The notes under the pieces were generated by a model. The model saw only the letters and a program-made list of their open reading frames with translations. It ran no database searches and had not been told where the DNA came from. A DNA stretch of 63,958 nucleotides, counting the filler, from Reclinomonas americana ATCC 50394 (taxonomy: Eukaryota), in the NCBI GenBank assembly GCA_048213135.1. It is 7 parts of 3 records of this genome, joined end to end, with 100 filler letters (N's around TTAATTAATTAA, not from the genome) between each part and the next. Parts side by side here need not be neighbours in the genome. Positions count along the whole stretch, not along the records: positions 9,215 to 24,978 come from PS015169.1; 6 more parts are not named here. One strand, written 5' to 3'. The stretch's first letter is position 1. Every line of letters begins with the position of its first letter. Shown piece by piece: positions 5,361 to 61,100 of the stretch. Position numbers and translations under genes: made by a program.

Positions 5361-7181
5361 ATGGCAACGCAGCAACACCCCTCGCCCTCATCGCCCTCGT
5401 CTGAGGCGGAGGACGATGTGAGTCTTGGCCCACTGCCAGCCTCGTGCTTGCAATACGTCTTTGCGTTCCTCGTGGTCGAGGACTTGGAGCGACAGTGGAC
5501 CACCAGTCGAGCATTCTGCAAGGCGTTTGGTGCGACAACAGAGAGCACGCGTCTCTATGCTCTCCCTCCTCTCTCTCTCTCTCATGCAGCCCTCCCTCTC
5601 CCGCACAGAGCGATTTGTCGGCTGTGTCCGCATTCGCGGATTTCAGGCGGCTGCAGTGCTGTCGCGCGGACTCGACTTGTTCCCCCGTCTGTGCAACATT
5701 GAGCTGAAGGATGCCGATCTGCCGGCACAAGGCGCAGCGGCGGTGATCTGTCGAGTGTTGCGTGAGCGGCCTCTGCTCACGCACTTGTCGTTGAAACGTG
5801 CGTCATTGTGTCACAAGAGAAGCGAGTTGTCTCTCGTCGGCTGATGGTGACTGGCTGCGTGCAGACGTGGAGCTGCAGGACGAGTTCATGGCGTCGATTG
5901 CGGAGGGCCTGGTGGCGAACACGAGTCTGGTGGTGTTGCGACTGGAGAGTTGCGCGTCGCCGCTCTCCTGCGAGAGTGCAAGCGGAACACTGACGACGCT
6001 TTTTTTCTTTGCCATACGCACAGGCAACCGCATTGGCTGCGATGGCGCCGAGGTGTTGGCCACCAGCCTCGAGCAGCATCCGTGCCTGAGAGTGCTCTCG
6101 TTGCAGGGCAATCGCGTTGGTGAGCGCGGGGTGGCGGCCCTCGGCAAGCAGGTGCTGGCGCGTGTGCACAGTGTCAATCTGCAGTCGAATCGTCTGGGTG
6201 CTGGTGGTGCCGCCAACATTGCTGCGTCTCTTGTGCAACACGCGCGAGGTTCATTACGTTCCATCAATCTGTGTGGATGCCGTCTGGAGAATGCCGGCGT
6301 GGAGCACTTGGCGGCTGCGCTGCGCGTCAACAGCACACTCACCTCGTTGAATGTGCAATCGAATCGCCTCACGGACGCCTCGGCGCTGGTGCTCTCCGAC
6401 GCCCTCTGCAGCAACCAGGCGGTACGAAAGCTGGACCTCTTCTGGAACGGCATCACGGCAGAGGGTGCGCGGCACTTGGCGCACCTGCTCACGCGACCCG
6501 GCTCGTGTCTCGAGTACCTGAATCTGGCGCGGAACAAGATCGGGCCACTCGGTGCGAGGGCACTGGCCGAGGCGCTTGTGGACAAGCACTGCGTCCTCCA
6601 AGTGCTGCATTTGGCCTCCAACGACATTGGCGCCGGCGAAGGCTGTGAGGCGCTGTGCGACGCCCTGCGCGCCAACCCCGTTCTGCAGCACCTGCACGTT
6701 CCTGGCAATCGATGTATGTTGTCTCTTTCTGCCGGGCCGCTGAAAAGAAGCAGCTCAACTCGTGATCATGCGCAGTTGGCGACCAGGGAATGCTTCAGGT
6801 GGCCGAGGCTCTGACGCACAACACGCATCTCGAGTCAATCAGTCTGCAGTCGAACGGCATCAGCGACGAGTGCGCGGAGCAGGTGGCGAACACGTGGACA
6901 AGTGCCATGGGTGAGGTCGTTGCCGGCGATGGACTCGTGCTGCACTTGCGGCGTCTGCGGTTGCAGAGTGCGTATCCATCCACACGCCCCCCACTCCCTT
7001 TCACCTCCTCATCACCGCCTCACTTCTCGGTCGTGCAGGCAACCAGCTGACGCCTGTCGGAGTGGATCTGATTGCTCGAGCGTGCAACGCGCCGACTTCA
7101 CGCTGCTCCTTCGATCTCGACCCCGCAGCGGCGACGTCGTTCGGTGCCGATGCCATCGACGCGACAGACGACCACGAATAA
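5361..7181 (+). CDS. F-box-like + ribonuclease-inhibitor-type LRR protein
   Basis: N-terminal LPASCLQYVFAFLVVEDL resembles an F-box. Many LxxLxLxxNxIgxxGaxxLa repeats follow. Introns restore the frames, with the stop TAA at 7179-7181. Confidence 0.8.
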
Positions 7182-11126: not shown

Positions 11127-12488
11127 TCACCGCAGCTCCACGTGCAGTCGGTCGCGAGTGAGACACCGCACGTCCTCCTGGATGTCGTCGACCTCCTCGT
11201 TGGTCATGCTCCGTTCCATGCTGCGGTATGTGATGCGGTAGCACAGGCTGCGACGGCCAGTCTTCGGGTGTTTAAAGTCGTCGATGCGCTTGACAGTTTC
11301 CACCAGGTCACCGGCACGTTCGCGCACCAACTCCATGAGGTCGTTCTCCACAAACGGCGCCGCGGCACTCTCCCAGAAACTCATGTCCTTGAAACATGGC
11401 GGGTACTTGCTGAAGGGTCGGAACTTGACAATCTCGCCACGACGGAATTGCGAGGTGAATCGCTCGTCTGCGCACATACTCAGCAAAGGCGAGGCAGGAT
11501 GAGGGGTGCTGTCACCGGCGCCTCACCATCAGACCAAAACAGACGAATGTCGGTGATCTCGAACAGAATCATGGCCAGTCGATCAAGACCGAGACCAAAG
11601 GCCCAGCCGTTGTCGCGGTCGGGTACGCCACACTGCTGCAAAATCTTGCGTGCCACCACGCCACACCCCAGCACCTCCATCCACTTGTCGTTGTAGTAGA
11701 TCTCCAACTCCAACGACGGATCCGTGAACGGGAAGTACGCCTCCACCCAGCGCATCTCCACGTTGCCAAACAGACTGCGCGTCACCGACTCGAGACGCGC
11801 CTTCAAATCGGCCTCCACCAGTGCCGTGGCCACTGGAGCGTCGGGTGAACTTCCGGGCAACTCGCCCGGTGAAAAGATCCGCACACCCTCCATCTGGTGA
11901 AACACCGGGTAGTGATGGCTGTCGACTTCGTCGCGGCGGTACACATCGCCGGAGCACAAAAAGGCACGATGACCGGCACGAATCAACTGCGACAGCAGAG
12001 GGAGGTCAGCGCAAGAGTGTGTGGCGAAGGGGAGACGGGCCAACCTGATTCTGATGTGCCGATGTGTGCGTGCGCAGCAGTGTCTGCGAGTCGTAGTAGT
12101 ATGTGTCGTGAGGCGATCGACTGACGTGGTCGGTGGGGATGAGCAGCTCGTCAAAGTTCTGCTGCACGGTCACCCGAGGCGGCAGCGAGTCGGCAAACTG
12201 TGCATGCATGCAGGCATGCGACAAATGTCAATCATCAGCATGCACAAAATGCATGCATTCTGCACACACACACACACACACACGCGCGCGCGCAACGTGG
12301 TACACGCCGGGAAACGCTTGCTCAAACTGCTTCTCAATGTGCCGCTTGATGATGCCAATGGGATGTGCGGGCAGTCGGTGCAGTGAGCGACCGACTTTGG
12401 CCTGCACGGAGGCTGGAATGTTGCAGGTGATGGTGCTGGCAGTGGGTGCGTTGGACAGCCATGCCCGCGAGATGCGTGTGCTCCACAT
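11127..12488 (-). CDS. FARS2: Mitochondrial phenylalanyl-tRNA synthetase
   Basis: [86 protein letters not shown] and the C-terminal FDX-ACB domain ([14 protein letters not shown]). Confidence 0.95.
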
Positions 12489-12537
12489 GGTGTGCACGAC
12501 AACAAAGGAAGGACAAATACACATAAAATGCCGACGT

Positions 12538-14556
12538 TCACTCAACAGCAATGCAGTGTCGCATATCAAACTGCACCACGCGTGGACGAAGCGACAAGCG
12601 ACGTCCAGCGGTGCTGGCTGTGGGTGGCGAAGGCGCGTTACTGACCACCTGGTCAATGTCGAAACCAAAGGAGCAATCCTTGCGCGTCAACACAATCGGT
12701 GGCAACGACGTCGCCGACGACAGCGAAGACGACGACGGAACCACTGGTGGAGTTGGCGGCTGCTGCTGCTGCTGTTGTTGTTGTTGTTGCTGCTGTTGTT
12801 GCCGCTGCTGCTGCTGTTTCAGTCGCGCGACGGCGGCCGGGCTGCGAGGCCACGACGCCGCACTGCGAACGAGAATGCCGGTTTTTGGAGGATCGGGAAG
12901 CGGTGGCATTGCCATCGAGGTCATTGCCGCTGCTCCGCTAGCAGCACCTCTCCTCGCTCCACCTTCACCGTCGACTGAGCCGTGCGCCTCGCTAGAGGTC
13001 ACGGAGCTTGTGGCGGCAGAAGAAGCAGACGTGTTGTGCGAATCGGTTCGTGCTGCAGTTGCCGTCTCTGCTTCCTGGTACGCGCCATCATCTGCGTCCT
13101 CGGTCGACATGGCATCCTCCGAGAACGACGACGTCCCTGACTCGGTGGACGACAGGGACGGCGATCGCCGCACCAGCAGATTCAACTTGCCGCCACCATC
13201 GAGAACGGCCAGATCCTGCGGCGACAGCGAACACATGCCGCCAATCAACGACGCCAACAGTGGCGACGGTAATCGGCGGGTGGGTGATCCGGATGCAGCA
13301 GCCAGACCGCTGTCCACCGACGGTGCTCGCGTGGCGTGCGGAAGCGAGGCCGAGCGACGCGATCGTCTGTGAGCACCACCGCACACGGTCATGATTGTCA
13401 GCGCACATCGAGGAGTTGGAACTGCAGGATGCACATCCTACTCGGTCTTCGTTTCTTTCCCAACTACTCTCCCTCTTCCCTCTCGTCCTCCCCCTCCCCC
13501 ACCCAGCGGCATGACAAACCTGGGTGGTGACTTGACACCTTCGATGAGCGGCGACGACCCTCCAGCGGTCGGCGCAGGCGCCGTCTCCGGCGATCGCACC
13601 CTCCGACGCTCCCGGTCCGCATCCTCACCCGACGACGACGACATGGCACCACTGCTCGGCGACGACGACGACGCCGACCAGGCGGCATGACTGCCGCCAC
13701 CGACGGCGGCAGTTGCGGCCGACACTTGCAATTGACCAAACGAAACTCTCGGACCCGCCGTCGGTCTCCGCACCCCAATGCCCCCGCCCGCATTCGTCCC
13801 AAAGATGAGCTCGTCGCCACCCCCTAACCGACCATCATCGTCATCGTCATCGTCATCATCATCATCATCATCATCATCGTCGTCGCCATTCCCACGAGGC
13901 TTATCACCACCAACACCGCCATGACGATTCGTTGACAGCGGTCCAAACGTCGGCGGCGACAGCAACGCCGGTGGCGACGACGAGTCCGACAGCATCGACA
14001 ATGGTGTAGTCGGCGACGACATGGACGACACCGTGGTGCTGCCGGAGCCCGCCGACTTGATGCGTAATTGGACACTGGCCACGGTGTTGCCACCACTCGA
14101 CGATAGCGACGACGGCGTGGAGTTCACCGTCGGCGTCGTAACCGCAGTGCCAGTGCTGGCACGACGAGCGCCCACAATACCACTGTTGCTGCTATTGCTG
14201 TTGCTGTTGCTGAGTGCGTTGTGGTGGCGGCGCGACATGACGCTGGCCGAACTGCCGGCACGTTTCAGACCGCGAGACACAACTGGTGGTGGCTGCTGTT
14301 GTGTGTCACTGGCAGCCTTCAGTCCCCCTCCCCCTCCTGCTCCTGCTCCATGTGGCAATGAGGGCAACATGGAGTCGATGCCCCACACGAGCTGCGCCGT
14401 GACCAGCATCGCGTCGCTGCTCTGTGGTGTGCTTGCGTGATTGGCCACTTGGTACTTGCGTGCTGCGCGGCGGCGACTTCCTCCTCCTCCGCCGCCGCCT
14501 CCGCCACCTCCGCTGCTGCGACCAGAGGCGGCCGACACACTCGTGCGGCACCCCAT
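12538..14556 (-). CDS. Low-complexity S/G/D/Q-rich hypothetical protein with MGC N-terminus
   Basis: Two long ORFs joinable by a GT-AG intron at about 13424-13502. It has poly-D and poly-Q tracts, a PRVSFG motif and no recognisable domain. Confidence 0.55.
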
Positions 14557-14810
14557 CGAGTCAATCAATAAATCACAATCAGACAATGTTTAATGGACAG
14601 ACGTGCGGACTATCGAGCTCGCAGGTGAACGTTACGACTGCAACGTTTTTTCTGGTTTTGTGGTGGGAGAAGAACAGAAGCGCGCCGCGTCCTCTCTCTC
14701 TCTCTCTTTGTGTGTTTGTTTGCTGTGTTGTGTTTGTTTGTTGTGTCTGTTACGTCCGTTTGTGACTGTGAGAGAAGACAAGAGAGATTGTATAATTTTT
14801 TCGAGAAGCA

Positions 14811-17800
14811 ATGACCGAGGTGGAATCGACCTTGTTTGGCAACGTGATCGTGCTGTCGCGCGCTGGCACCGAGGGTGCGGCGTTTCCGCTGGAGGACCGC
14901 GAGTGCACGTTTGGCCGGTACGCTTGTTTGTCTGTGTGCGTGTGTATGTGTGAGTGTGAGTGTTTGTTGACGACTTGGCGGGCTGCAGTGGCCCATCGAG
15001 CGACATTCGCATTCAGCTGTCGACCGTGTCGCGGCAACATGCGCGCATCTATGTTGACGAGAAGGAACAAGTTACGGCGCATGCTGCCCGTTTGCGGCGG
15101 GGCAGCACACACTGAAAGACACATGTGACACACAGGTGTGGATTGAGAACTGCAGCTCCACGCAAGAGACCATTGTCAACGACGAGGTAATTCAAGGCCC
15201 AGTGCTGCTGAGCAACCTGGATGTCATCACCATCGCCGATCGCATGTTCCGCTTTGAAGGTGTGTCCCCACTGCTGACCGCCGCTGCTCGCATGCGCATC
15301 GCCTCACACACATGTCAGCTGCACTCAAGAGCAAGTTGACGCCTGGTTCTGGCAAGAAGCTGGCAGTCGCCAAGCGCTCTCCATTTGCCGACAGCACCAA
15401 CATTGCGGCAAAGAGCGTGAACCCGGTGAATCGCATGGCCAGCGACGACACCCTGACCATGCCGCCGAAGAAGAGCCCGGCTCCCTCCAAGGCTCCTGCG
15501 GCCGAGGACCGCGAGAACGCCCGACCGGCCTCTGCCAAGAAGTCGGTGAGTGATGTCGCAAGCATGCCACCTCATGTCCCCCGACCCATTCTCAAATGTT
15601 GTTGTGTGCCTCGCGAAGTTGGCCACTCCGTTGCGACAGGCGCTCGCGAATCGCCGCCGAGTCATTGAGGGTCACGACAGCAGCGTCGATATGTCGAAGA
15701 GTTGCGTCGCTGCCTCCCCACGCTTTCTGTCCGTGTTCACTGGCTCACGCACTGTGTGCGCGCGCGTGTGTGTAGGTTCCCAGGAGGAAGATTTTGACAA
15801 GCCAGAGCCGATGGTTGAGGAAGTGGCCGTCGTTGAGCCCGTGCCGCAGGCCGTTGCTCCAGTGCCAGTGCCAGAGTCGGTAATGGAGGAGAAGGAAGAG
15901 GAGAAGGAGGAGGAGGAGGAGAAGTTTGTCGTTGAGCGCGTTCCGCCTCCCTCTCGCCTGATGACCCCGCTGCGCCGCGATATTGAGGCGCGACGCTTGC
16001 CGAGCGCTCAAAAGTCACGCGCGGTTGCCGCCTTTGTGGCGCCGCAGTTTGAGGAGCGCGAGGCCGACCTGTTGCCAGTGGACGAGGACAATGACGATGA
16101 TGACGAGGAGATGGACCTCGTGCCTATTGCGGCAACGGCCAAGCCGCTGATGGAGGAGGACACGAACGGTGCAGCCTCTCATCTCAAGTCTACGAGTCTT
16201 ATTTTGTGATGCTCATCGTGTTCATTCACCCAGATTTCTCGTCGGTCATTCGACGCCTGTCCATGGACCTCGACGGCAGCTTTGCCGCCAATGAGGGTGT
16301 GTGCATGCATGTGCATTGCCTTGTCAACGTGTTGTCTACCTGCACTCACAAGCATGCGATGTAGAAATCGAGTCTGTGCGCGTGGAGGCCCCCAAGAGCC
16401 TGTTTGCCAAGATCAAGAAGCGCCGCATGACCGCCTCGGCCCTGCCCACTGCCTCTGTCACTCCGTCGGCATCCATCAAGAAGCCGAAGAAGTCGGCGGC
16501 CAGCACCGACCGCAAGAAGGCGAAGAAAGTGAAGAAGATCAAGCGCAGCAAGTCCGCCGCCGGCGCCGCCGACGAGGAGGACGAGGAGGCCGTGGCCGGT
16601 GCGTTAAACCATGATAACGAACTGTCTCTTCCTCTACTGACTCACCTGTTAACGTCTGTTGTGTGCAGTTGGCGACGACTCCTTCACCCAGCGCGTGATC
16701 AATGCCAACCCCTCGTGCAGCATCACCCCGATGAAGCGATCGTCGGAGAAGCAGCCGCCGCCAGAGTCGATTCTGCTCCGTTCTGCTGCCTCGGCTGCCG
16801 CCGCCGCCGCCATCATCACCCCTGGTCGCTTCAGCGAGAGTGGCAAGACGCCGCGAGAGCGCCGCAAGAGCGTGCAGTGGTCGGAGCGCCTCGAGCGCAC
16901 CTCGCCGACTGTCCCCTGCGGCCGTCTCTCCGCCGTCTCCATCCTCGACGAGTCTGGCAACAGCCGCCTCTCGGTGGGTCAGCTGAGCTCCAGCGCTCCC
17001 GACCAGTCCATGGTTTGTAAGAATCGATGCTGCGCTGTGCCTCTATTGATCTGACATGACGGTGCGCAGGCGACGCCTGGACACTTTGTCGAGGGCGAGA
17101 TTCCGGAGACCGACGAGCATGACTCCGAGGTGGAGGACGAGGAAGACGCTGAGCAGGCAACTGACGGTCCGACGGCCATGGAGACGGAAAGGTATACCAA
17201 CGTGTCGTGCATGCATGTGGTGGTGGTTCTTTAAGTGTCCTCAATTCCACGGGCCTGCCACAGCGTGGAACCCCAGCGCCGCCTCAACACGCCGTTCAAG
17301 AATGAGCTGATGGCCGCGGCTACCAGCAAGACGCAGAGTCGGTACGTGTGTTTGTCGCAAGAGCAGAGTGTGAGAGACTCGGGTTTTCTCACTCGCTGCT
17401 ATCTCAGTGCCAAGCGCCTGCAAACTCCACTGAAGAATGAGCTGTTGGCTCTGGTGGCTCGCAAGCAGACAACAGTTGTTGCGACCGCCGAGCCCACCGC
17501 TACCCCGTCGCCCGCGCCCAAGGCAGCAAAGGAGGAGGAGATCAAGTGAGTCGTCACCTGCGACTCGAATGCGTTGCTTTGCCTGCTCACTTCTTCCATC
17601 AGGCCACGACGGCTGCAGACGCCTCTGAAGAACGAGTTGGCCAATGCTGTGGCCAACAAGCGCAAGGCTGTTGTGCCGGCTCCTGCGGAAGCCGTCATGT
17701 GAGTGTTCTCTCTTGCATCTCCCTCCCTCTCGCTTCAACGTACTCACTCGAAAATGACAGCAGCCAGCCACGCCTGCAGACTCCCATGAAGAAGGAGATC

Positions 17801-20262
17801 GCCGATAAGGCGGCCATGCGACAGCAGCAGCGCGAAGCCAAGCAGCAGCAGCGCCTGACCACTCCGGTCAAGGCGGAGCTGCAGGCCAAGGCAGCGGCGC
17901 TGGGTGAGAAGAAGCGTGCCCAGCAGGAGCCTGTGCAACGACTGGCCACCCCCATGAAGCGAGAGATTGTGGCTGCTTCCGGACGCGTGCAGCAGAGCAT
18001 TGCAGAGAAGCAGCAGGCGGCCGAGTTTCGTGGTGCACGGAACGCATGAGATCCACGCGCATTTCCTGTTCTCACTGCGTGCTTGTTGTTAGTCACCGTC
18101 TGCAGACTCCGCTGAAGCAGGAGCTGGCGAAGAAGAGCGCCGAAGTCAACAAGCAGCTGGCCGAGAAGAAGTTGCCGAACAAGCACATTGGCACGCCGCT
18201 CAAGTCGGAGCTCAAGAGTCGTAGCCAGGAAGTGCGCGAGGCACTGGACGAGAAGCGCATGTGCGTGTGTGTTTGACAGCGAAACTGCGTTCTTGCCCAT
18301 GTACTTTCTGACACAAATGGCACACTGCGCAGTGACGGCAAGCACATGTCGACCCCATTGAAGCGCGAGCTCATGCAGCGCAGCGAGCAGTTTGTCGGCG
18401 AGACGACGTACGTGACTTCCACGGCCAAGACCCTGGCGACGCCGCTGAAGCGCGAGATTGCCGAGTCGAGCAACCGCATGCGCGAGAATCGGTGAGTGTG
18501 TCCGTGGCTCCTCTTATCTAAATGCTTTTTTGCGCTCACGTGTGCGTGCAGGCCACAACCGGCACCGAAGGTGCTTTCCACCCCTGTGCGCTCGGAGCTG
18601 GTCGCATCGGCTCAGGCTCGTGCCATGGCCCGCCGACCAGTCACCGCTCTGCCATCGCCGCTGCGCGAGGAGTTGAAGCGCGGCCAGTTTGCTCTTGCAC
18701 CAGCGCCAAAGGTGAGAATGTGATGACGTGGCTTTTTATGTCGCCCCCGTGGAAACTCAAAGAAACCCAATGCACAGCCACAGGAAGCTGTGCAGGAGAA
18801 GGTGGAGGAAGAGGTCGCCGTTGTGCCATCGTCGCCCGAGGCTGCGAGCAACCAAGAGAATGAGGTCGCGGCTGACGATGAGGACGGTGAGGTGTTCTTC
18901 CGAGTCCGCAACAAGCGCAACTATGCGGATGTTGGTGAGGAACCGTCACTGTGTCTGCTGTTCATCGGTGTTTACTAATTCCTGCTTGCAGAGGAGGATC
19001 TCGACGACATCATGTCGCCGCCTGTCAAGAGCCCCGGCCGCAAGCGCCGTCGTCTGGGCACGCCGTCGGCCAAGTCGGCACCTGTCGCAATCAGAACAGC
19101 GCAGGGCAAGGTTCCGTCTTTCTTCCCACTCCCCACTCTTGCATCGCGCAGACGTCGCTGACGTACTGTTCTACGCAGCGCCTGACTGCACGCCGACGCA
19201 AGCTGGACGCTGCACCGGTGGCGGTGCCGCTGGCCAAGTTCGATCCCAGCCTGTTTGAGAATCTGCGCAATGGCGCCGCAGCGTCGGCTCGCGCCGCCTG
19301 GGTGCAGTCGCAAATGTCAAACGGCAGCAACGTGTTGCGTGAACTGGTTATAGTGTGTTCAGTTCCCCCTTCTAGTGATGCTCACCCCCGTGCACAGAGA
19401 ACCGCGCTCCGCGGCCTTTACATTTGCCGAGCTGAAGGCTCTGAAGGCGGCAGCCGATGCCGCCGCCATGGCGCCACCGGCCCCGCAGATGGCTCGCAAG
19501 TCGGCCACCCCACTGAAGAGTGCCACCCCGCTGAAGAGCGCCACCCCACTGAAGAGTGCCACTCCGCTGAAGAGTGCGTCGACGCCGACTCGTCCACCAT
19601 CGACCAGCAAGCGCACTCGTGTCGCTCGCGGTGTGCAGCAGACTGTTCCCTCGGTGGTCGTGGTGCCCCTCGGCTCCCACGCGCGCCTGCTGACGCCAAT
19701 GGCCGACGATGCGTTCCAGGTGGAGTTCGACGAGCCCCCAATGCCACAGCCGGTGTTCGAGGCCGCCGAGCCGGAGCCGGTGGCTGAGGAGAAGCCGGCT
19801 CGCAAGGGTCGCCGCGCAACCATCTCCACCAAGAAGCAGGAGCAACCGGAGGAGGTGGAAGACGAGGAGGTGGAGCCGGCACCACGCAAGCGCGGAGGTC
19901 GCCGTGTCACTCAAGTGCCCGAGGAGCCAGAGGCGGTCAAGCCCAAGAGCCGTCGTGGCGCCGCTCGCCAGCCAGTGGTGGAGGAGGAGGAGGCGGAGCC
20001 TGTCGCCGAGCCGATTGAGATTGTCGAGGAGCCACCGAAGAAGCGCGGCACCAAGGTCAGCGTGTATGTGTGTGTCTTCGATGCCCACTACTCTGTCTGA
20101 CGCGCATGCTCCTTGTACCACCAGCGCTCTGCGGTCGCTGAGCCCGAGCCAGTCGAAGCGACAGAAGAGCCCGCATCCAAGCGCGCCTCTCGACGCCGCA
20201 CCGTGGCTCCCGCCGAGGTGCCCGCACCCGCCGCACGAAGCACTCGCTCCCGTCGCGCATAA
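14811..20262 (+). CDS. Ki-67-like protein: N-terminal FHA, PP1-docking motif, repeated TPxK CDK sites, basic/acidic tail
   Basis: The spliced FHA reads VIVLSRAGTEGAAFPLEDRECTFGRGPSSDIRIQLSTVSRQHARI...ENCSSTQETIVNDEVIQGPVLLSNLDVITIADRMFRFE. It also has RRKSVQW, about 14 RLxTPLKxEL-type units and KSATPL repeats across roughly 20 exons. Confidence 0.8.
19498..19578 (+). repeat. 18-bp coding tandem repeat (KSATPL x4+)
   Basis: aagtcggccaccccactg / aagagtgccaccccgctg / aagagcgccaccccactg / aagagtgccactccgctg. Confidence 0.9.
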
Positions 20263-20576
20263 TCAACTTTCATCAACCAACAATCAGCCTCACAATCACC
20301 ACTCTCTCTCTCTGTTGTTTCATCCGGTGTCTGTCTCTGTTCTCCCTCTCTCTGCCTCTCGCTGGTCGTTTTTTTCTCCTCGAAAGCAGACAACATCGCA
20401 ATCCGCGCCCCTCAACGAGCGCCAATACAAACACACACACTCATCATGAACATTACGACGATTGTACAATGAATGAGAAGCTTCTCGCAGTGCAAGAAAC
20501 TTTCTCATTTCTCTCTCACACACTCACACTCACACACGCACGCACGTCTGATGTGCATCACTGCACGACCTCTCTC

Positions 20577-20735
20577 TCAGTACTCCATGTCTGGCGGCAT
20601 CTCAGTGGTCAAGTTGTAAATCAAAATGGGATCGCCATTCTCGCATGTGGGCGCCTCCGCCTGCTTGTATGAGCAGTCCAGTGATGCGCATGCGCCGTCG
20701 CCAACAGCCTCTTCCACTTCGCTTCCAAAGTCCAT
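20577..20735 (-). CDS. Possible 52-aa microprotein divergent from RAD51C
   Basis: ATG-initiated ORF MDFGSEVEEAVGDGACASLDCSYKQ... with coding-like GC3. No homology recognised. Confidence 0.25.
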   Translation of the reverse strand: MDFGSEVEEAVGDGACASLDCSYKQAEAPTCENGDPILIYNLTTEMPPDMEY

Positions 20736-20826
20736 GATTGATGTTGGTGAGTGGACAGTCGCGGACAGTTTCCGCGCGCATGACGTGTCGGTTTCCCGCA
20801 TTGAAGTTTGCATTCGAAGCACTTTG

Positions 20827-22568
20827 ATGGAGCTGTCGGTGCTTGACTTGCCGCCTCAAGTGCGCGCGCGTCTGCAGGCAGCAGGGTTTCAGAGTGTGGA
20901 GGATCTGCGGTGTGTGTCCTCTTTTGTGCACTCTCTCTCTGTGTGCACTCTGACTGTCGTGTGTTGCAGCAATGTCAGTGCGCGAGATGTGGCGAAAGGT
21001 GTGTGTGTGTGAGAGAAGAACAAGTAGAGAGAGAAGAGCAAGAAAGAGAGAAGAAGAAGGAGAGAAGAAGGAGAGGAGAGAAGAGAGAGAGAGAGAGATC
21101 AACGCTCACCGTGCCTTGCCTGCGTGATGGGGACTGCTCACTGTCTCTGTTCTATGTGTGTGCAGAGTCGGGCGTCAACATGCGACAGGCGCAGAGTGTG
21201 GTGAGTGCTGTGGCGACTGTGCTTGGCACGGTGACAGCAGCCGCTGCTCCATCGGCTGCGTCGGAGAGTGGAAGTGGGTCGGCGTTGTTTGGCACCAGTG
21301 CGTTGGAGTTGTTTGAGGTGAGCTCGTGGAGAGAGAAGGAGACAATGCATTGATGATGATGATTTTCGTCGCGTGTGCCAGAGGCAGAAGAGCCGCAACC
21401 CCATCATCACCTTCTGCAAGGAGCTTGATGATATGCTTGGTGGCGGTGTGCAGTTGGCCAGTGTCACCGAATTCTGTTGCGTTGTGCTTCTCCTTTGTGC
21501 ATCGCCTTCTGTGCATCGCTCATAATGGAGCAGGCGGCATTCCCGGCATTGGCAAGACACAGCTGGCCATTCAGCTGGCTGTCAACGTGTGCATTCCGGC
21601 CGCCTTTGGTGGCGTCGAAGGAGAGGCCGTGTACATTGGTTTGTGTACAAGGGCGCGTTTGTGTTGGTGTGGCAGTTGTCTAAACGTGGCGATGCAGACA
21701 CCGAGGGCAGCTTCACTGTCGACCGCTGCGAGGAGATGGCGACGGTCGTGGTGAAGCACTTGCGCAGTGTTCGTGCACGGTCACCGCAAATCCAGGTGCG
21801 TCGCTTCCATCCCTTGCTTTCTTGTCGTTCCCGCGTGCCGATCCGCGCCGCGCCAGATCACGGACGAGGAGTTTGAGAGCAAGTGCAACGTCGACCACAT
21901 CCTCGGCAGCATCCACTACTTTCGCGTGCACGACCATGCCGAACAGGTATATACAAGGAGTCTTTTCCCCTGCTTCACTGTTTCCTTGTCTCACCACCTC
22001 GGCGACCCAGATTGCCACCATCAACACCCTGGCGCATTTCATCGCCACCCGTGCGCCGCGCGTCAAGCTGGTGGTGCTCGACTCCATCACCTTTCACTTT
22101 CGACACGAGTTCTCCAACTTTTCCGCACGCTCGCGTCTCCTGCACGGCATTGCACAGTCGCTCTCCGAGTTGGCCAACGAGCGCGAACTGGCCGCCGTCA
22201 TTATCAATCAGGTGGCGTCGCGCTGTTGCTTTTTGCGTCACCCACCTCTGTGCCTCACCCTCATCATTGCACGTCTCCCGCAGGTCACCACACGCTTCCT
22301 CTCCGCCACATCGGCGCCGTATCTCGCACCCGCCTTGGGTGAGAGTTGGGCGCACGCCACCACGCACCGTGTGGTGCTCTCCTTTGCGGAGGGCGCGCAC
22401 GACGACGAGGGTGGCGTGCTCGCTTCCGCGAGCGTGCGCACAAGGCGGGCCGAGTTGCACAAGAGCCCCTCGCAGGCCGCCGGTGTCGCCAGATACGTGG
22501 TCACCAGTGATGGAATCCGCGGTGTCTCGTCAGCTGCCGCTAGAAGAGAAGGCAGTGGTGGGTCATGA
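20827..22568 (+). CDS. RAD51C: DNA repair protein RAD51 paralog C
   Basis: [85 protein letters not shown] and [10 protein letters not shown]. Confidence 0.93.
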
Positions 22569-22607
22569 TGTACAAAGAAGAAGGCATTCATGAAGATCTT
22601 GTTATTG

Positions 22608-52540: not shown

Positions 52541-52651
52541 CTATGCACACANNNNNNNNNNNNNNNNNNNNNNNNNNNNNNNNNNNNNNNNNNNNTTAAT
52601 TAATTAANNNNNNNNNNNNNNNNNNNNNNNNNNNNNNNNNNNNNNNNNNNN

Positions 52652-55600
52652 GTCGGAATTCGGCGTCCCTCCGGCAGCGTCGGCGCATTGGACTCGGAGA
52701 GACCGAGTGACAGCATGTTGGTCGACAGCACAGTCATGTTGTCAGTGTAAAAGTTGACGTTCGGAATGCGGTAACCGGGGACATTGAACGGCGTCTGCTC
52801 GCCGAAGCTCGCACTGGTGTACGCCTTGAGGAGGAAATCATTTGAGTGAATTTCCACTGTTGCCACGCGGAGCGGTTCCGTGGCCACCACAGCTGCGGTC
52901 GACGGGTTGCCGATGCGGAAGCGGGTGGTGGTCAGGAAATCGACATTGTCGGTGTACCAGTAGACGTTGGGGATGCGGTTGTTGGCACCAAGAGCGTTGA
53001 CACCGAATGTGACGCTCGTGTAGGCTTCCACCAGAAGCTGATTGAGGTGGAACTCGACAAGCGGAATGCGCAGCGGCTCCACTGCCGACACTGGGTTCGG
53101 ATCGCGAACGCCGAATCGCAGTCGGTTCGTCGAAAACAGATCAAACTGGTCCGTGTACCAGCTCACGAGCGGTATGCGGTTGCCGTTGTTGGCGCCACCC
53201 GTGTTAAGAGCGTTGACGCCGAACGTGGCCGACGTGTAAGCCTGCGCAAGGAGGGAAGGGTAATGAGAGAGACACGAAGCCAACGACAGGTTAAGAGCGA
53301 GGGAGACGACACTTAAATACACACCGTCACCAAGAAATCGTTGCTGTAGATGGAAACGGTCGGCACCCGGTTCGGCTCGTTGGGTGGTGCGGTGAGCACA
53401 GCATTGGAGAAGCGACCGATTTGCACCGTGTCCGTGGCCAACAGCAGCCAGCGGTCCGTGTACGACTTGACGTCGGGGATGCGGTTGCCCGCACCCAGAG
53501 CATCGACGCCATATGTAACGCTGGTGTACGCCTCTAGCAGCAGATCGTTGACGTGTACTTGCATGGTCGGCACACGATTCGGCTCCACACCCGACGCGGG
53601 AATGACCGAATTGTCAGGGCGTCCAATGTACAACGTCTGAGACGCCAGCAAAAGGTAGTTGTCGGTGAACCACTGCACAGTCTTGATCCGATTGCTGTCG
53701 GTCTTGAGTGGAAGCCCGCTATTGATGTTGAGGTCGTCGACGCCGAAGCGGGCTGTGGTAAACACCTCCATGACAAAGTCGTTGGCATACATCGACAGTG
53801 ACCGGATGCGGTTCGGCTCAACGCCAGACACGGCAATCGCGCTCTTGTCCTGCCGACCCAATGTCATGGTTTGCGTGGCATACACGCTAAAGTTGTCGGT
53901 GAACCAGTTGACCGTCGGAATTCGATTGCCGTCAGTCGGATTGCCGGCGTTCTTGTTCAAACCATCGACGCCAAAGTTGGCGCTGGTGAACACCTCGACC
54001 AGCAGAGTGTTGGTGTGCAGTTGCGTCGCACCAATACGCAGCGGCTCAATGGCCGGAGTCGGAATGTCGACGTTAGACGGCTGACCCAGCTGCAGCGTCT
54101 GAGTGGCAAGCAGCTGGAAGTTGTCCGTGTACCAGTTGACATTAGGGAATGCGGTTGCTGTCGGTGGTGCCAATGATCCCGCTGTTCGTGTTGAGGGCGT
54201 TGTATCCAAAGTTGGCCGTCGAGAACACGTCCATCTGCAGCGTCGTCGTGTGCACCTCCGTCAGCGTGATGCGGTCGGGATCCACGCCACTGCCTGGTAC
54301 CGCTCCGGTGGCACGGCGGCCAAGCTGCACCTTCTGCGTCGCCAGCAGCAGGAAATTGTCCGTGTACCAGTTGACGTTTGGAATGCGGTTGCCGTCCACC
54401 NNNNNNNNNNNNNNNNNNNNNNNNNNNNNNNNNNNNNNNNNNNNNNNNNNNNNNNNNNNNNNNNNNNNNNNNNNNNNNNNNNNNNNNNNNNNNNNNNNNN
54501 NNNNNNNNNGTGTTGCCACCGTTGATGTTCAGCGCGTCCACGCCAAACGAGGCCGATGTAAAGGCTTCCAACAGGAACGTGTTGGCATGCATCTGCAGGA
54601 AGTTGATACGCAGAGGCTCCGGCGTCTGCAGCGGCGCATTTGATGGCAAACCAAACGACGCAGTTCCAGACGCCAGCAGCGTAAAGTCTGCAGCGTTGAT
54701 GGTCACAGACGGAACACGGCCAACGCCCGTGCCAGTCTGACCGATGGTGAGCGTGGCGTACGACAAAATGGTGATGTTGTCGGCGTGAATCTGGAAATCG
54801 TAGATGCGCAGCGGCTCAAAAGTGTTGGCGGGAATGGCCGCAACCGACGGCTGTCCGAGATACAGCTTCTGCGAGGCATACACGTAGAAGTTGTCCGTGT
54901 ACCACGTGGTGGTCGGGATGCGACTGCCGTCAGCGGGGCCGCCTGCGTTGGTGTTCAGAGGTGCGAATCCAAAAGTGGCGCTGGTGTAGGCCTGCATCTG
55001 GAAAGCGTCCGCGTTGATTTCGACAGTGGGCACACGGTTGTCGGCAGGCGCAGCCACCGACGACTGACGACCGATTCGCACTCGACTACTGGCCAGCAAC
55101 AAGAAATCATCCGTGTACCAGCTCACGTTCTGCACAAAACGTGAGTCAGGGCACGAACACACACGCAAACACACGTGCGCGGTGGCAACGCAACAGGAAT
55201 TCGATATCCGGCACCAAGAGTATCGAAACCAAAAGTGGCGGAAGCGTAGGCTCTCACAGAGAGCGTATCCACATGCACCTGCATGTCCGGAACACGGCTC
55301 TCTTCAAGCCCCGGAGCGAGCGTGGCAGTTGTCTTCAATCGACCAATGTAGAAAGTCTTGCTCGCCAGAATCTGGTAGTCGTCAGCGTACCACGCGACCG
55401 TTGGAATGCGGTTGCCGGCACCGATGGCGTCAACACCAAAGGTGGCTGAGGTGAATGCCTGTGTGTGCAGATCACGGTGAGCGGTGGGAATTCCTCTCTA
55501 TGACACACACACACTCTCTCTCAAACTGCGCCACACAAATCACTAACCTCTACCAACAGCGTATTCACGTGTACTTGCATGGTTGGGATGCGCAGTGGCT

Positions 55601-55754
55601 CAGGTGACACAATGGCAGCATTCGACGGCATACCAAGGAACAGCGAATTCGACGCCAGAATCAAAAAGTCGTCACTGTACCAGCTGACATTCTTGATGCG
55701 GTTGCTGTTACCCAAGGCACTGATACCAAAGTCCGCGCTCGTATACGCGTGCAT
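52652..55754 (-). CDS. Giant novel tandem-repeat protein (~70-aa NRIPxVxWYTD...EPLRI...AYTSAxFG units); fragment
   Basis: About 12 or more repeat units across spliced exons. There is a +1 frameshift at about 54145, and both ends are open. Confidence 0.75.
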
Positions 55755-55774
55755 NNNNNNNNNNNNNNNNNNNN

Positions 55775-57016
55775 TTGCACGCGTATACGAGCGCGGACTT
55801 TGGTATCAGTGCCTTGGGTAACAGTAACCGCATCAAGAATGTCAGCTGGTACAGTGACGACTTTTTGATTCTGGCGTCGAATTCGCTGTTCCTTGGTATG
55901 CCGTCGAATGCTGCCATTGTGTCACCTGAGCCACTGCGCATCCCAACCATGCAAGTACACGTGAATACGCTGTTGGTAGAGGTTAGTGATTTGTGTGGCG
56001 CAGTGTGAGAGAGAGTGTGTGTGTGTCATAGAGAGGAATTCCCACCGCTCACCGTGATCTGCACACACAGGCATTCACCTCAGCCACCTTTGGTGTTGAC
56101 GCCATCGGTGCCGGCAACCGCATTCCAACGGTCGCGTGGTACGCTGACGACTACCAGATTCTGGCGAGCAAAACTTTATACATTGGTCGATTGAAGACAA
56201 CTGCCACGCTCGCTCCGGGGCTTGAAGAGAGCCGTGTTCCGGACATGCAGGTGCATGTGGATACGCTCTCTGTGAGAGCCTACACCTCCGCCACTTTTGG
56301 TTTCGATACCCTTGGTGCCGGATATCGAATTCCTGTTGCGTTGCCGCGCACGTGTGTTTGCGTGTGTGTTCGTGCCCTGACTCACGTTTTGTGCAGAACG
56401 TGAGCTGGTACACGGATGATTTCTTGTTGCTGGCCAGTAGTCGAGTGCGAATCGGTCGTCAGTCGTCGGTGGCTGCGCCTGCCGACAACCGTGTGCCCAC
56501 TGTCGAAATCAACGCGGACGCTTTCCAAATGCAGGCCTACACCAGCGCCACTTTTGGATTCGCACCTCTGAACACCAACGCAGGCGGCCCCGCTGACGGC
56601 AGTCGCATCCCGACCACCACGTGGTACACGGACAACTTCTATGTGTATGCCTCGCAGAAGCTGTATCTCGGACAGCCATCAGTTGCGGCCATTCCCGCCA
56701 ACACGTTTGAGCCGCTGCGCATCTACGATTTCCAGATTCACGCCGACAACATCACCATTTTGTCGTACGCCACACTCGCCATCGGTCAGACTGGCACGGG
56801 CGTTGGCCGCGTTCCGTCTGTGACCATCAACGCTGCAGACTTTACGCTGCTGGCGTCTGGAACTGCGTCGTTTGGTTTGCCATCAAATGCGCCGCTGCAG
56901 ACGCCGGAGCCTCTGCGCATCAACTTCCTGCAGATGCATGCCAACACGTTCCTGTTGGAAGCCTTTACATCGGCCTCGTTTGGAGTGGACGCGCTGAACA
57001 TCAACGGTGGCAACAT
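55775..57016 (+). repeat. Near-identical inverted copy of 54530-55754 (same repeat-protein exons and introns)
   Basis: Reverse-complement match with scattered SNPs and a 3-bp intronic indel. Both copies have the same endpoints, and a 20-N gap lies at the centre. Confidence 0.9.
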
Positions 57017-57116
57017 NNNNNNNNNNNNNNNNNNNNNNNNNNNNNNNNNNNNNNNNNNNNNNNNNNNNNNNNNNNNNNNNNNNNNNNNNNNNNNNNNNNN
57101 NNNNNNNNNNNNNNNN

Positions 57117-57732
57117 GGTGGCCAGCGTCAGCACATTGTCCGTGTACCAGTTAACATTCTTGATACGATTGTTGGCCGGCGTGCCAGACGGATCGTTCAG
57201 TGCATTGACACCAAACGTGGCCGACGTGTACGNNNNNNNNNNNNNNNNNNNNNNNNNNNNNNNNNNNNNNNNNNNNNNNNNNNNNNNNNNNNNNNNNNNN
57301 NNNNNNNNNNNNNNNNNNNNNNNNNNNNNNNNNNNNNNNNNNNNNNNNNNNNNNNNNNNNNNNNNNNNNNNNNNNNNNNNNNNNNNNNNNNNNNNNNNNN
57401 NNNNNNNNNNNNNNNNNNNNNNNNNNNNNNNNNNNNNNNNNNNNNNNNNNNNNNNNNNNNNNNNNNNNNNNNNNNNNNNNNNNNNNNNNNNNNNNNNNNN
57501 NNNNNNNNNNNNNNNNNNNNNNNNNNNNNNNNNNNNNNNNNNNNNNNNNNNNNNNNNNNNNNNNNNNNNNNNNNNNNNNNNNNNNNNNNNNNNNNNNNNN
57601 NNNTGGACGTGTTGGCTTCGCGTCGTCTGTACCTTGGTCGACGGTCGGCGAATGGGTCACTGGTGGCCGCCGGCTCGGAGCCGGATCGCATCCCCGATAT
57701 GCAAGTGCACACGGAGGTGTTCTTGATGACGG
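57117..57732. other. Two short additional fragments of the WYTD-repeat gene in opposite orientations
   Basis: Minus strand 57117-57232 reads NRIKNVNWYTDNV. Plus strand 57604-57732 reads LYLGRRS..EPDRIPDMQVHTE. Confidence 0.65.
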
Positions 57733-57832
57733 NNNNNNNNNNNNNNNNNNNNNNNNNNNNNNNNNNNNNNNNNNNNTTAATTAATTAANNNNNNNNNNNN
57801 NNNNNNNNNNNNNNNNNNNNNNNNNNNNNNNN

Positions 57833-58113
57833 CCGCTGGCTGTCACCACGCCAGTGACCGCGAGAGAAGAAGCGGCCGTAACAGCACCCGACACATTCAG
57901 CGTGCTGTTCACAGTAACTGCGGCCGACGCCGTGGTCGGTGACGCCAGAGTCAGCGCGGACGATGGATTGCCGACAATGATGGGAGCCGACAGAGTGGTG
58001 CCAATATTAATGCCACTGCCACCGGCCAGCGAAATGGTCGCTGCGCTGACTTGAACCTGCACAACACACCAGATACAAGTAAATCAATGGTGCTCCATGA
58101 CGTGCAGAACTCG

Positions 58114-58171
<58 letters not shown>

Positions 58172-61100
58172 TGCGTACCAGCACGTCAGCAGAGTTGCCG
58201 ACGAAAACAGAGCCGCGGGTTGCCGCAGTGCCACCCTGGATGTATACGGCGCCGCCCATTGTAATGGCGTCACCGCCGATGATGCGAACATTCCCGCCGG
58301 TGGCACCACCTGCGTTGAGCGCACCGACCAACCAGATTTCCCCGCCAGCCGCCGCCACAGTAGCAGTTCGTCGCAGTTTGAAAGTGGTGGTGTCTGCGGG
58401 TCCCAGGTTGAGCGTATCACCACCGCTGACGGCCAATTTGTTGGTCGCAGCCAGCACCAAATCGGCGTTCAGCTGCGCAGTGGTTGCATTCACGGTGACA
58501 GTCTGTGTCGCTGACTTGCCAATCACCACCTGCAGAACGAGAATTGGGGGGAGCAACAGTGAACACATAGAATACGTGATTGACAACGGGCGGGACAGTG
58601 AAACACACCTGTCGTCCCACAAGCGTGCCGATCAGCACACTGCCTTCGAGCGCGGTGCTGGACGCGGAACCGGCGTCAATAAACATGTCGCCGCCTTGCA
58701 GACCTGTAGCACCGCCCTGCCCGCTGAATCGTGTGTCGCTACCGGCGCTCGTGGTACTCGCTGGTCGAGCCAAGAACAGCGGAGCGGAACTGGAGCCCAG
58801 CGAAATCGTATTGCTGGTGGACTGCAGTGACAGGTCGGTGCTGGGAGTTGGTGAAATCACCGCAGGCGTCACCAGGCTCTGCCCACTGAACTGGAAGCCG
58901 TTGATGACATTCAACTGTGACACGAAGGTCGTGCGTTGAGCTACACGTTTGCAATCACATCGAGACACATAGGAAGGTTCGATACGCACCGTGCCGTCAA
59001 TAGTCACAGTCGTGCCTGCATTGCCCAGGTTCACGTACTGCGCCGACGAGGTGCCAATGGACACGCGATTGCTGGCGTCCATCTGCACATTGGTTCCACT
59101 GATACTGACCAGGCTCGTCTGGAAGGTCGAGGCACCGACATACACCGCTCCCGACGTGCCGGGATTGGCCGTCAGGGCGCCTTGCAGACGAATNNNNNNN
59201 NNNNNNNNNNNNNNNNNNNNNNNNNNNNNNNNNNNNNNNNNNNNNNNNNNNNNNNNNNNNNNNNNNNNNNNNNNNNNNNNNNNNNNNNNNNNNNNNNNNN
59301 NNNNNNNNNNNNNNNNNNNNNNNNNNNNNNNNNNNNNNNNNNNNNNNNNNNNNNNNNNNNNNNNNNNNNNNNNNNNNNNNNNNNNNNNNNNNNNNNNNNN
59401 NNNNNNNNNNNNNNNNNNNNNNNNNNNNNNNNNNNNNNNNNNNNNNNNNNNNNNNNNNNNNNNNNNNNNNNNNNNNNNNNNNNNNNNNNNNNNNNNNNNN
59501 NNNNNNNNNNNNNNNNNNNNNNNNNNNNNNNNNNNNNNNNNNNNNNNNNNNNNNNNNNNNNNNNNNNNNNNNNNNNNNNNNNNNNNNNNNNNNNNNNNNN
59601 NNNNNNNNNNNNNNNNNNNNNNNNNNNNNNNNNNNNNNNNNNNNNNNNNNNNNNNNNNNNNNNNNNNNNNNNNNNNNNNNNNNNNNNNNNNNNNNNNNNN
59701 NNNNNNNNNNNNNNNNNNNNNNNNNNNNNNNNNNNNNNNNNNNNNNNNNNNNNNNNNNNNNNNNNNNNNNNNNNNNNNNNNNNNNNNNNNNNNNNNNNNN
59801 NNNNNNNNNNNNNNNNNNNNNNNNNNNNNNNNNNNNNNNNNNNNNNNNNNNNNNNNNNNNNNNNNNNNNNNNNNNNNNNNNNNNNNNNNNNNNNNNNNNN
59901 NNNNNNNNNNNNNNNNNNNNNNNNNNNNNNNNNNNNNNNNNNNNNNNNNNNNNNNNNNNNNNNNNNNNNNNNNNNNNNNNNNNNNNNNNNNNNNNNNNNA
60001 GCACCGCCTGCACCACTGGCGGGCGCCGTCCGACCAATCACAAATTCGGCATTGTCGTTGGCACCCATGCGAATGGTGTTGCCCGATGACGCTAGCAAAT
60101 TGGCGAGCGTGACGGGAGAGGAGAAAGTGGTCGAGGAAGCGTTGACTTGAAGCGCGGCGGAGGCGCTGCCGAGCACGACTTGTTGTGCGTTGCTGACGCC
60201 AAGATAGAGGCTGCCGCCGCTTCCGCTGCCCTTTCCAGCGTCGACATACCTGCGAAGATCGGGTGTTGAAGAGTCAGCGAGAAATCTCATCAGAGAGCGA
60301 GAGCACGCAGACAGCAGCGCAACATGTCGCCTGCCACGAATCCGCCGGTGGTATCTTGGCCAAGAAGGCGTGTGGCAGCTGCGCTAACGTTGACGCGCGA
60401 TGGCCGCCGCAAAATAAAGTCAGCAGACGAGGAGGTGGTGCCAAGTAGAATGTTCGACGACTGCGGGGTGAGGCTGAGATCACCACCGCCAGACGTTGTA
60501 ATAATGGACGCGGTGAGCGAGCCGGTAATTGTTGCTCCGTTGGTTGCAGCGAGCTGTGGCCAGACACACTCCGGTCAGCTCGACCACGCACAATGATAGG
60601 GCGACAAACGCAACTGCTCCATCAACCACCACCGGAATGCCAGCACGACCGACATAGACACCAGTGGAAACCGAGGTGCCGAGACGCACTGCTCCGAGAG
60701 GCGATACATACACATCTGTAATGGCCTCGAGTGTCACCTGCGGTCAAGTGCATCAGGCTAACCGATACCACGACAAGATCAACCAGAAAAAAAGAAAAGA
60801 TAACTAACCGTCTGCGCATTTGTTGTTGAGCCTACAAACACAGAGCCGACGGTGCCAGCACCCACGGCTGGCGACGACGTCAGCCGGATGCTGCCGCCGT
60901 TGGTGGAGCCAAAGACCGGTGTCGGACGCGTCAGCACCAACTCCATGCCGTCCGTGTCGCCAAACATTACTTGATTGGACAGCGAGCGAATGGACGAGGT
61001 TGACGAGAGCGTCATGCCGCCGTTGACTTGGAGGGAGGATGAGGTGGCCACAGAGCCCACAAAGGTTGTGGCCGCACCCATAGTGATGGCACTAGTATTC

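What the first reader, a model, noticed from the sequence alone, without database searches (positions are those of the whole stretch)
14811..20262. Ki-67-like architecture in a probable unicellular eukaryote
Seen: the N-terminal FHA closely matches the Ki-67 FHA as remembered (G..FPL....C.FGRG...DIRIQL..VS.QH..I...N.SST..T.VN..VI..PV.L...DVITI.DR.FR.E). It is followed by an RVxF/W-type PP1 motif (RRKSVQW), about 14 dispersed RLxTP[LM]KxE[LI] units, KSATPL repeats (full CDK consensus TPxK) and a charged tail. Known: vertebrate Ki-67 has FHA + PP1 site + CDK-phosphorylated repeats and coats mitotic chromosomes. Inference: an ancient or convergent perichromosomal surfactant protein with its own repeat unit. 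Several repeat units begin right after phase-2 introns, hinting at exon duplication.
Basis: partly seen in the sequence, partly recalled or inferred. Interest (0 to 1): 0.72.

Follow-up and report, generated by a model that had tools for sequence, protein, structure and literature searches.

The report
Protist member of Ki-67 family
This is a real, intron-rich gene of an unidentified microbial eukaryote that encodes a relative of the cell-division protein Ki-67; such relatives outside animals are already published, so it is a further example, with its own repeat unit and two introns shared with animal Ki-67 genes.

Summary
Observation confirmed; novelty low. Window 14811-20262 models as one gene of 22 exons, 21 GT-AG introns (57-75 nt) and 1355 aa. 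No RNA run was available. FHA exons 2 and 3 match only Ki-67 among solved structures. FHA introns 1 and 2 sit at the same nucleotides as in animal-type Ki-67 loci: acceptor 9 of 9, donor 6 of 8. This points to common descent, not convergence. Fourteen LxTP[LMVF][KR]xx[LI] units are far above chance; seven follow consecutive phase-2 introns. The RVxF site is chance-level by pattern and lacks the KiR-SLiM. Ki-67-like proteins of this layout are already published for fungi, Dictyostelium, Capsaspora, Monosiga, Thecamonas and Hondaea (bridgin 2021; 2026 preprint). The scan noted such genes before on other genomes and on another piece of this genome. Most likely a CDK-switched, chromatin-binding disordered scaffold. 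A chromosome-surface or nucleolar-rim role is about 50% likely and a bridgin-like kinetochore role about 20%; neither was tested. Lineage not placed.

The parts
14811..20262 (+). Whole gene model: 22 exons, 21 GT-AG introns of 57-75 nt, 4068-nt CDS, 1355 aa, pI 9.1
   Evidence: (exons chosen by hand, checked by script); no RNA support
14811..14917 (+). Exon 1: start and first FHA strands, ending inside the Arg codon of Phe-Gly-Arg
14918..14988 (+). Intron 1, phase 2 in the FHA Arg codon; same position as in animal-type Ki-67 loci
14989..15070 (+). Exon 2 (82 nt): DIRIQL strand and Ser-x-x-His phosphothreonine loop; same length as in 6 of 8 assessable genomic loci
15071..15135 (+). Intron 2, phase 0; same position as in animal-type Ki-67 loci
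15136..15259 (+). Exon 3: C-terminal half of the FHA domain; Gln in place of human Asn67
15619..15645 (+). Outlying TP-helix unit 1 (aa 181)
15958..15984 (+). Outlying TP-helix unit 2 (aa 269), inside the acidic block aa 201-365
16365..16598 (+). Exon 8: lysine-rich basic block (aa 366-430, net +16), candidate nuclear or nucleolar targeting
   Evidence: function inferred
16860..16880 (+). RRKSVQW, candidate RVxF-type PP1 docking site without KiR-SLiM
17264..18711 (+). Exons 11-17: array of 12 LxTP[LMVF][KR]xx[LI] units, about 29-aa period, pI 10.7, net +35; six symmetric phase 2-2 exons (11-16), seven phase-2 introns
18992..19713 (+). Approximate span of the basic block aa 1011-1195 (pI 12.0), candidate DNA/chromatin-binding region
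   Evidence: function inferred from bridgin and Ki-67
19498..19569 (+). Four tandem KSATPL hexapeptides (18-nt period), each a full CDK site
19714..20262 (+). Tail aa 1196-1355: alternating acidic and basic patches, net -3

Best explanation
The gene is a descendant of the same ancestral gene as animal Ki-67 (family membership about 0.9). It most likely works as Ki-67 does. (1) The FHA head binds a phosphothreonine partner, probably NIFK: the domain is shown, the partner inferred. (2) The basic block at aa 1011-1195 and the basic patches of the tail hold the protein on chromatin by charge: charge shown, binding inferred. (3) In mitosis CDK1 phosphorylates the TP-x-K sites, one per repeat; 35 sites would turn net +16 into a negative charge and bring the repeat array from +35 to about +7, so the chain stretches into a repelling brush or changes phase: sites shown, phosphorylation inferred. 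(4) PP1 docked at RRKSVQW reverses this at mitotic exit: weakest step. The working place is most likely the chromosome surface in mitosis and the nucleolar or heterochromatin rim in interphase. The repeat array grew by duplication of symmetric phase-2 exons and by duplication inside exons.
For: Exons 2 and 3 each return only the two Ki-67 FHA chains among 177635 PDB sequences at E up to 10. Among 1.84 billion representatives exon 3 gave 3 hits: a fish Ki-67, an unnamed 77-aa fragment and a repeat artefact. Introns 1 and 2 coincide with those of animal-type Ki-67 loci. All six 'general features' of the 2026 preprint are met or plausible: N-terminal FHA, large low-complexity body, RVxF, pI 9.1, repeats, one S/TP per 39 aa against one per 35 in human. 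The repeat array is basic, unlike bridgin's acidic repeat region. Ciona Ki-67, with no alignable disordered part, goes to the perichromosomal layer in HeLa cells. Phosphorylation-driven charge change of Ki-67 repeats is published (abstract).
Against: No RNA, no genome, no NIFK search and no localisation. No tree was built and no bridgin or protist homologue was retrieved: the 120 listed of 269 profile hits were named fish Ki-67 or unnamed near-identical proteins. The KiR-SLiM and Pfam PP1_bind are absent, although found in 3 of 3 animal-type proteins tested. R/K is 1.1, whereas the preprint reports a low R/K in all its homologues. The last 160 aa are not basic. Gln replaces human Asn67 in the FHA loop. 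Fungal bridgin has the same layout and acts at kinetochores, and Drosophila Ki-67 did not go to nucleoli. Many protists have closed mitosis (established knowledge), where a chromosome coat may be dispensable.
Confidence: 0.5

Rival explanations
1. Same family, but it works like fungal bridgin: FHA and repeats dock on the outer kinetochore (KMN) and the basic region grips centromeric chromatin.
For: Similar size (1355 against 1295 aa) and repeat count (14 against 13), same order of parts, and an atypical PP1 site in both. Bridgin is the only unicellular member found tested in its own cell, and Dictyostelium and Rozella proteins are listed as its homologues. The C-terminal 345 aa have pI 10.5.
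Against: The region matching bridgin's acidic USD (pI 4.65) has pI 8.4 here and its repeat array 10.7. The FHA is 41-52% identical per exon to fish Ki-67 and to L007. Bridgin's repeat consensus could not be seen, so repeat homology is untested.
Confidence: 0.2
2. Same family, but an interphase chromatin or nucleolar organiser only, with no mitotic coat (for example under closed mitosis).
For: Ki-67 organises heterochromatin and nucleolar shape in interphase (listing). Lysine-rich block at aa 366-430. The preprint raises closed mitosis as a reason a coat may be unneeded.
Against: 22 full CDK sites, one in every repeat, and an RVxW site point to a mitotic switch.
Confidence: 0.17
3. The repeats are specific helical ligands (for actin, microtubules or a partner such as PP1, PP2A or its own FHA) switched by phosphorylation at the TP helix start, so the protein is a multivalent cross-linker more than a charge brush.
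For: Leu, TP, hydrophobic, basic and Glu-hydrophobic positions are kept while DNA identity of the cores averages 59%, which suggests selection on the motif itself. A single-sequence model of three units is helical, pLDDT 73. An earlier scan note proposed WH2-like repeats in another protist Ki-67.
Against: The repeat profile matches no WH2 or other Pfam family and nothing in PDB below E 0.5. The model has pTM 0.30 and runs one helix through two TP sites, so it is unreliable. Only the last unit has a WH2-like Gly-x-x-x-Leu ending (WH2 consensus recalled).
Confidence: 0.08
4. Convergent assembly from an unrelated FHA domain, or two adjacent genes joined by my model.
For: Only the FHA is alignable; the PP1 region, repeats and tail give no significant match to animal-type Ki-67. 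No RNA confirms the junctions.
Against: Ki-67-only PDB hits, two shared introns, and no gap longer than 75 nt between exons over 5.4 kb with an unbroken frame.
Confidence: 0.05

Closest known systems
Non-vertebrate Ki-67 homologues (Haider et al., bioRxiv 10.64898/2026.06.18.733134; seen: abstract, parts 1-4 of 11, sections 12 and 13, passages; Table 1 and supplements not seen)
   Same: N-terminal Ki-67-type FHA, large disordered body, one RVxF, basic pI, lineage-specific repeats, dense S/TP. Their set includes Capsaspora, Monosiga, Thecamonas, Dictyostelium, Hondaea and fungi.
   Different: R/K of 1.1 is not low. The text holds no mention of intron, exon, bridgin, kinetochore or WH2, so the intron evidence is not in its main text. 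Whether any of their protist proteins carries this repeat was not seen.
Bridgin (Bgi1) of Cryptococcus neoformans (Sridhar et al. 2021, PMC7794384; seen: abstract, sections 12 and 16, passages, Supplementary Data 4)
   Same: FHA, PP1 site, unstructured middle with 13 repeats, basic C-terminal region, about 1300 aa; homologues listed in Dictyostelium, Tieghemostelium, Rozella, a chytrid, aphid and vertebrates.
   Different: Bridgin's middle is acidic and its PP1 site is at aa 161-164; here the repeat array is basic, the site is at aa 502-508 and the last 160 aa are neutral. No bridgin sequence was compared directly.
Vertebrate Ki-67 (MKI67; PDB 1R21, 2AFF; fish proteins P0003-P0123; review PMC8354752 and PMC5005033, passages)
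   Same: FHA subfamily, Arg31, Ser45 and His48 positions kept, introns 1 and 2 (fish-type locus L002), order of parts, CDK-site density.
   Different: No PF15276 or KiR-SLiM, no PF08065 repeat, repeats spread over seven exons where vertebrate repeats lie in one exon, intron 3 at a different position, smaller size.

Membership tests
Ki-67-like family, broad sense (Haider 2026; filed here) | N-terminal FHA of the Ki-67 subfamily | tested here: met
   no tree built
Ki-67-like family, broad sense (Haider 2026; filed here) | Large, mostly disordered protein | tested here: inconclusive
   1355 aa, 2.5% aromatic residues, 9.2% Pro, no Pfam domain above cut-off outside the FHA; no disorder predictor run; repeats modelled as helix
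Ki-67-like family, broad sense (Haider 2026; filed here) | PP1 motif [RK]x0-1[VI]{P}[FW] downstream of the FHA | tested here: met
   one match, aa 504-508; pattern alone is chance-level
Ki-67-like family, broad sense (Haider 2026; filed here) | Basic isoelectric point | tested here: met
   pI 9.12, net +16
Ki-67-like family, broad sense (Haider 2026; filed here) | Repeats in the disordered part | tested here: met
   14 units plus 4 hexapeptides
Ki-67-like family, broad sense (Haider 2026; filed here) | Many S/TP sites, enough to reverse net charge | tested here: met
   35 sites against net +16 (hand arithmetic)
Ki-67-like family, broad sense (Haider 2026; filed here) | Low R/K ratio (a trend in their set, not in their list of defining features) | tested here: not met
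   R 8.5%, K 7.7% over the whole protein; their metric is relative to the human IDRome and was not reproduced
Ki-67-like family, broad sense (Haider 2026; filed here) | FHA binds NIFK (variable across species in their models) | not testable with these tools
   no genome held; NIFK not available
Vertebrate-type MKI67 (not filed) | PP1 domain with KiR-SLiM (PF15276) | tested here: not met
   exon 9 has no hit at E up to 10; L005, L007 and P0004 all hit; motif text
Vertebrate-type MKI67 (not filed) | Ki-67 repeats (PF08065), encoded in one exon | tested here: not met
   no PF08065 hit on 19 exon translations or 14 units; repeats span exons 11-17; single-exon rule
Vertebrate-type MKI67 (not filed) | Perichromosomal localisation in mitosis | not testable with these tools
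   needs cells
Bridgin, strict sense (not filed) | FHA, unstructured middle and basic C-terminal region | tested here: inconclusive
   aa 1011-1355 pI 10.5, but aa 1196-1355 net -3
Bridgin, strict sense (not filed) | Acidic middle region (pI 4.65 in C. neoformans) | tested here: not met
   aa 105-1010 pI 8.36
Bridgin, strict sense (not filed) | Bridgin consensus repeat | not testable with these tools
   supplementary figure file too large or unanswered
Bridgin, strict sense (not filed) | KMN-dependent kinetochore localisation | not testable with these tools
   needs cells
WH2 repeat proteins (not filed) | Match to the WH2 profile or to solved WH2 peptides | tested here: not met
   short degenerate motifs can be missed

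The most novel reading that the evidence does not exclude
The organism lies outside the lineages sampled so far, so the two FHA introns shared with animals date a Ki-67 gene to or near the last eukaryotic common ancestor. The TP-plus-helix unit is the ancient repeat of that gene: a CDK-switched helical docking module, multiplied here by exon shuffling and replaced in vertebrates by single-exon charge-brush repeats. That would make the ancestral job of Ki-67 (kinetochore linker or chromosome coat) testable by repeat swaps.
Probability: 0.2. Interest if true: 0.55.

Novelty: new member of a known kind. Interest (0 to 1): 0.25.

Why it matters
It matters modestly. It adds one well-delimited protist gene to a family whose reach outside animals is already reported. 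It also adds intron position as evidence of common descent, independent of protein similarity and absent from the main text of the 2026 preprint. The repeat shows a second route to the Ki-67 layout: exon duplication in place of slippage within one exon. If the lineage were placed and the protein localised, it would help decide whether the ancestral protein coated chromosomes or linked kinetochores.

Tried and rejected
No whole genome is held, so NIFK, CCAN/KMN genes and paralogues could not be sought. No RNA holder was listed. Word-based homologue searches with exon 3 (5 candidates) and repeat exon 14 (372 candidates) gave none at E up to 10; both are weak tests. The FHA profile search was swamped by fish Ki-67; 120 of 269 hits were listed and 149 unseen. 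PDB searches with profiles A2 and A5 and hhalign are circular, since those profiles contain Ki-67 rows or the query, and are not used as evidence. P0001 is a sum over many weak repeats and was dropped. Of 15 pattern loci, L001, L006, L008 and L009 are chance matches in non-coding frames and were dropped before the intron count; L005 and L007 lack introns and served as transcript-like controls. ESM Atlas: exon 3 gave generic FHA clusters, exon 14 no usable hit. The repeat was not found in 15 of 15 loci, though most cover only the FHA exons; it does not match L007's own repeats. No Rfam hit in the window. The long antisense frame 19372-20262 has no Pfam family. One search was in the wrong frame and was repeated. 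Planned script work (fish FHA profile against the model, motif counts in fish proteins, a tree) never ran because the script machine was lost. Lineage: scan notes searched for 'amoebozoan' and kinetochore words gave nothing; not placed. Paper searches with no or no useful result.
Full report
Observation. The region 13500-21500 is gap-free. I chose splice sites by hand from three-frame translations and checked them by script: 22 exons from ATG 14811 to TAA 20262, 21 introns, all GT-AG and 57-75 nt long, a 4068-nt frame and 1355 aa with no internal stop. No inter-exon gap exceeds 75 nt, which leaves no room for a gene boundary. The least certain junctions are intron 4 (AAG acceptor), intron 5 (75 nt, in frame, no stop, could be retained), intron 14 and intron 20. 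No RNA run was listed and no genome is held, so splicing is inferred.

FHA class. Exons 2 and 3 hit Pfam FHA. Searched alone against 177635 PDB sequences at E up to 10, each returned only the two human Ki-67 FHA chains (E 7e-6 and 7.5e-3). None of the other FHA structures in the bank appeared, though it holds many (one search lists them). Exon 1 returned nothing but aligns pairwise to the start of a Ki-67-type protein at E 9e-9. Against 1.84 billion representatives, exon 3 gave three hits: a Coregonus protein that is a Ki-67 by its domains, an unnamed 77-aa fragment and a repeat artefact. Gly-Arg, Ser-x-x-His and the second Asn are kept; Gln stands where human Ki-67 has Asn67. No tree was built.

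Common descent. A degenerate DNA pattern for the exon-2 peptide found 14 metagenome loci and 1 viral locus. Four were chance matches, two were intronless full-length Ki-67-type frames with FHA and PP1_bind (L005, L007), and nine were genomic. In 9 of 9 genomic loci the acceptor lies at the same nucleotide as here, inside the Arg codon of Phe-Gly-Arg; L012 and L014 are near-identical, so 8 are independent. The donor falls 82 nt later in 6 of 8 assessable loci; L010 is 6 nt later, L013 unclear, L012 cut off. The flanking AG and GT also occur in the spliced message, so position alone could mislead. However, L011 and L015 show the upstream exon and donor, and L002 and L015 the downstream acceptor and exon 3. 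Intron 3 is not shared. By hand, two exact matches among three introns in about 300 nt have a chance of about 7e-5, or about 0.007 if only 30 sites were favoured. The loci are unnamed; L002 is fish-like by peptide and the rest are presumed animal. I recall the human gene having the same two boundaries, untested. Non-Ki-67 FHA genes were not examined as a control.

Repeats and motifs. Twelve lie in aa 600-935 with a period near 29 aa. Introns 10-16 are all phase 2, each 3-8 codons before a unit, against 2 of the other 14 introns (hand Fisher test about 3e-4, region chosen after the fact). Exons 11-13 carry one unit each and exons 14-17 two or three, so both exon duplication and duplication within exons are indicated. 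Core DNA identity averages 59%, so the events are old. Vertebrate repeats, by contrast, lie in one exon (PMC8354752, passages). The unit matches no Pfam family, no PDB chain below E 0.5 and not the repeats of L007. A single-sequence model is one long helix of low global confidence. RRKSVQW is the only RVxF match, but the pattern is expected about once by chance. The KiR-SLiM of Ki-67 and RepoMan (PMC5005033, passages) and PF15276 are absent. Charge runs in blocks: repeat array +35, aa 1011-1195 +24, last 160 aa -3, whole protein +16.

Mechanism. Shown: the domain, motifs, charge pattern and exon structure. Inferred from the family: phosphothreonine binding by the FHA, chromatin binding by the basic region (in bridgin the basic domain can be replaced by that of human Ki-67), CDK1 phosphorylation that changes charge pattern and phase behaviour (PMC9106583, abstract), and PP1 reversal. 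I put a Ki-67-like chromosome-surface and nucleolar-rim role at 0.5, a bridgin-like kinetochore role at 0.2, an interphase-only role at 0.17, specific helical ligand repeats at 0.08, and convergence or a wrong model at 0.05.

Prior work. Sridhar et al. 2021 (PMC7794384; abstract, sections 12 and 16, passages, Supplementary Data 4) describe bridgin with this layout and list homologues in Dictyostelium, Tieghemostelium, Rozella and animals. Its preprint (10.1101/816199, passages) and a review (PMC9252888, passages) say the same; 10.1101/2025.11.28.691167 (passages) only cites it. Haider et al. 2026 (abstract, parts 1-4 of 11, sections 12-13, passages) name Ki-67 homologues in Capsaspora, Monosiga, Thecamonas, Dictyostelium, Hondaea and fungi, and show Ciona Ki-67 at the perichromosomal layer. 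Unseen material that may bear on novelty: bridgin's repeat consensus (Supplementary Fig. 5a, Table 1) and the preprint's Table 1 and supplements; either might already show this repeat. I found no paper on shared Ki-67 intron positions in one search plus a term search in the preprint, which is a thin basis. Earlier scan notes report such genes in three other genomes and once on another piece of this genome; whether that piece is the same gene or a paralogue is unknown.

Verdict. Real gene and correct family call, but a new member of a known kind. The remaining value lies in the intron evidence, the exon-built repeat and the unplaced lineage. Interest 0.25.

Noticed in passing
   Followed up: partly
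window 15701-15775: Intron 5 is 75 nt, in frame and free of stops, so it could be retained.
   Followed up: no
window about 20829-22570 +: RAD51C-like gene starts about 570 nt downstream (PDB RAD51C E 4.5e-17; Pfam Rad51).
   Followed up: partly
window 12538-14556 -: Low-complexity gene running away from this one, its likely ATG about 255 nt from 14811, so possibly a shared promoter; no Pfam family above cut-off.
   Followed up: partly
window 11480-12500 -: Phenylalanyl-tRNA synthetase core domain (PF01409).
   Followed up: partly
window 52600-61600 -: Large repetitive beta-rich protein gene broken by N gaps; frames 53957-55303 and 56226-57788 are near-duplicates, either a real repeat or an assembly duplication. 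Not scanned against Pfam.
   Followed up: no
window 62891-63667 +: TPR_10/TPR_12 repeat frame; LRR_6 frame at 5795-6814.
   Followed up: partly
P0003 (Coregonus): Carries two FHA copies, at its start and near aa 1030-1120; P0004 likewise by Pfam. Probably two gene copies merged in annotation.
   Followed up: no
L013 547-660: The exon-2 frame runs into a stop near the expected donor; a different donor or a broken copy.
   Followed up: no
P0002: Unnamed 77-aa fragment that begins its match at the same point as exon 3 and also has Gln at the Asn67 position; possibly a closer relative.
   Followed up: no
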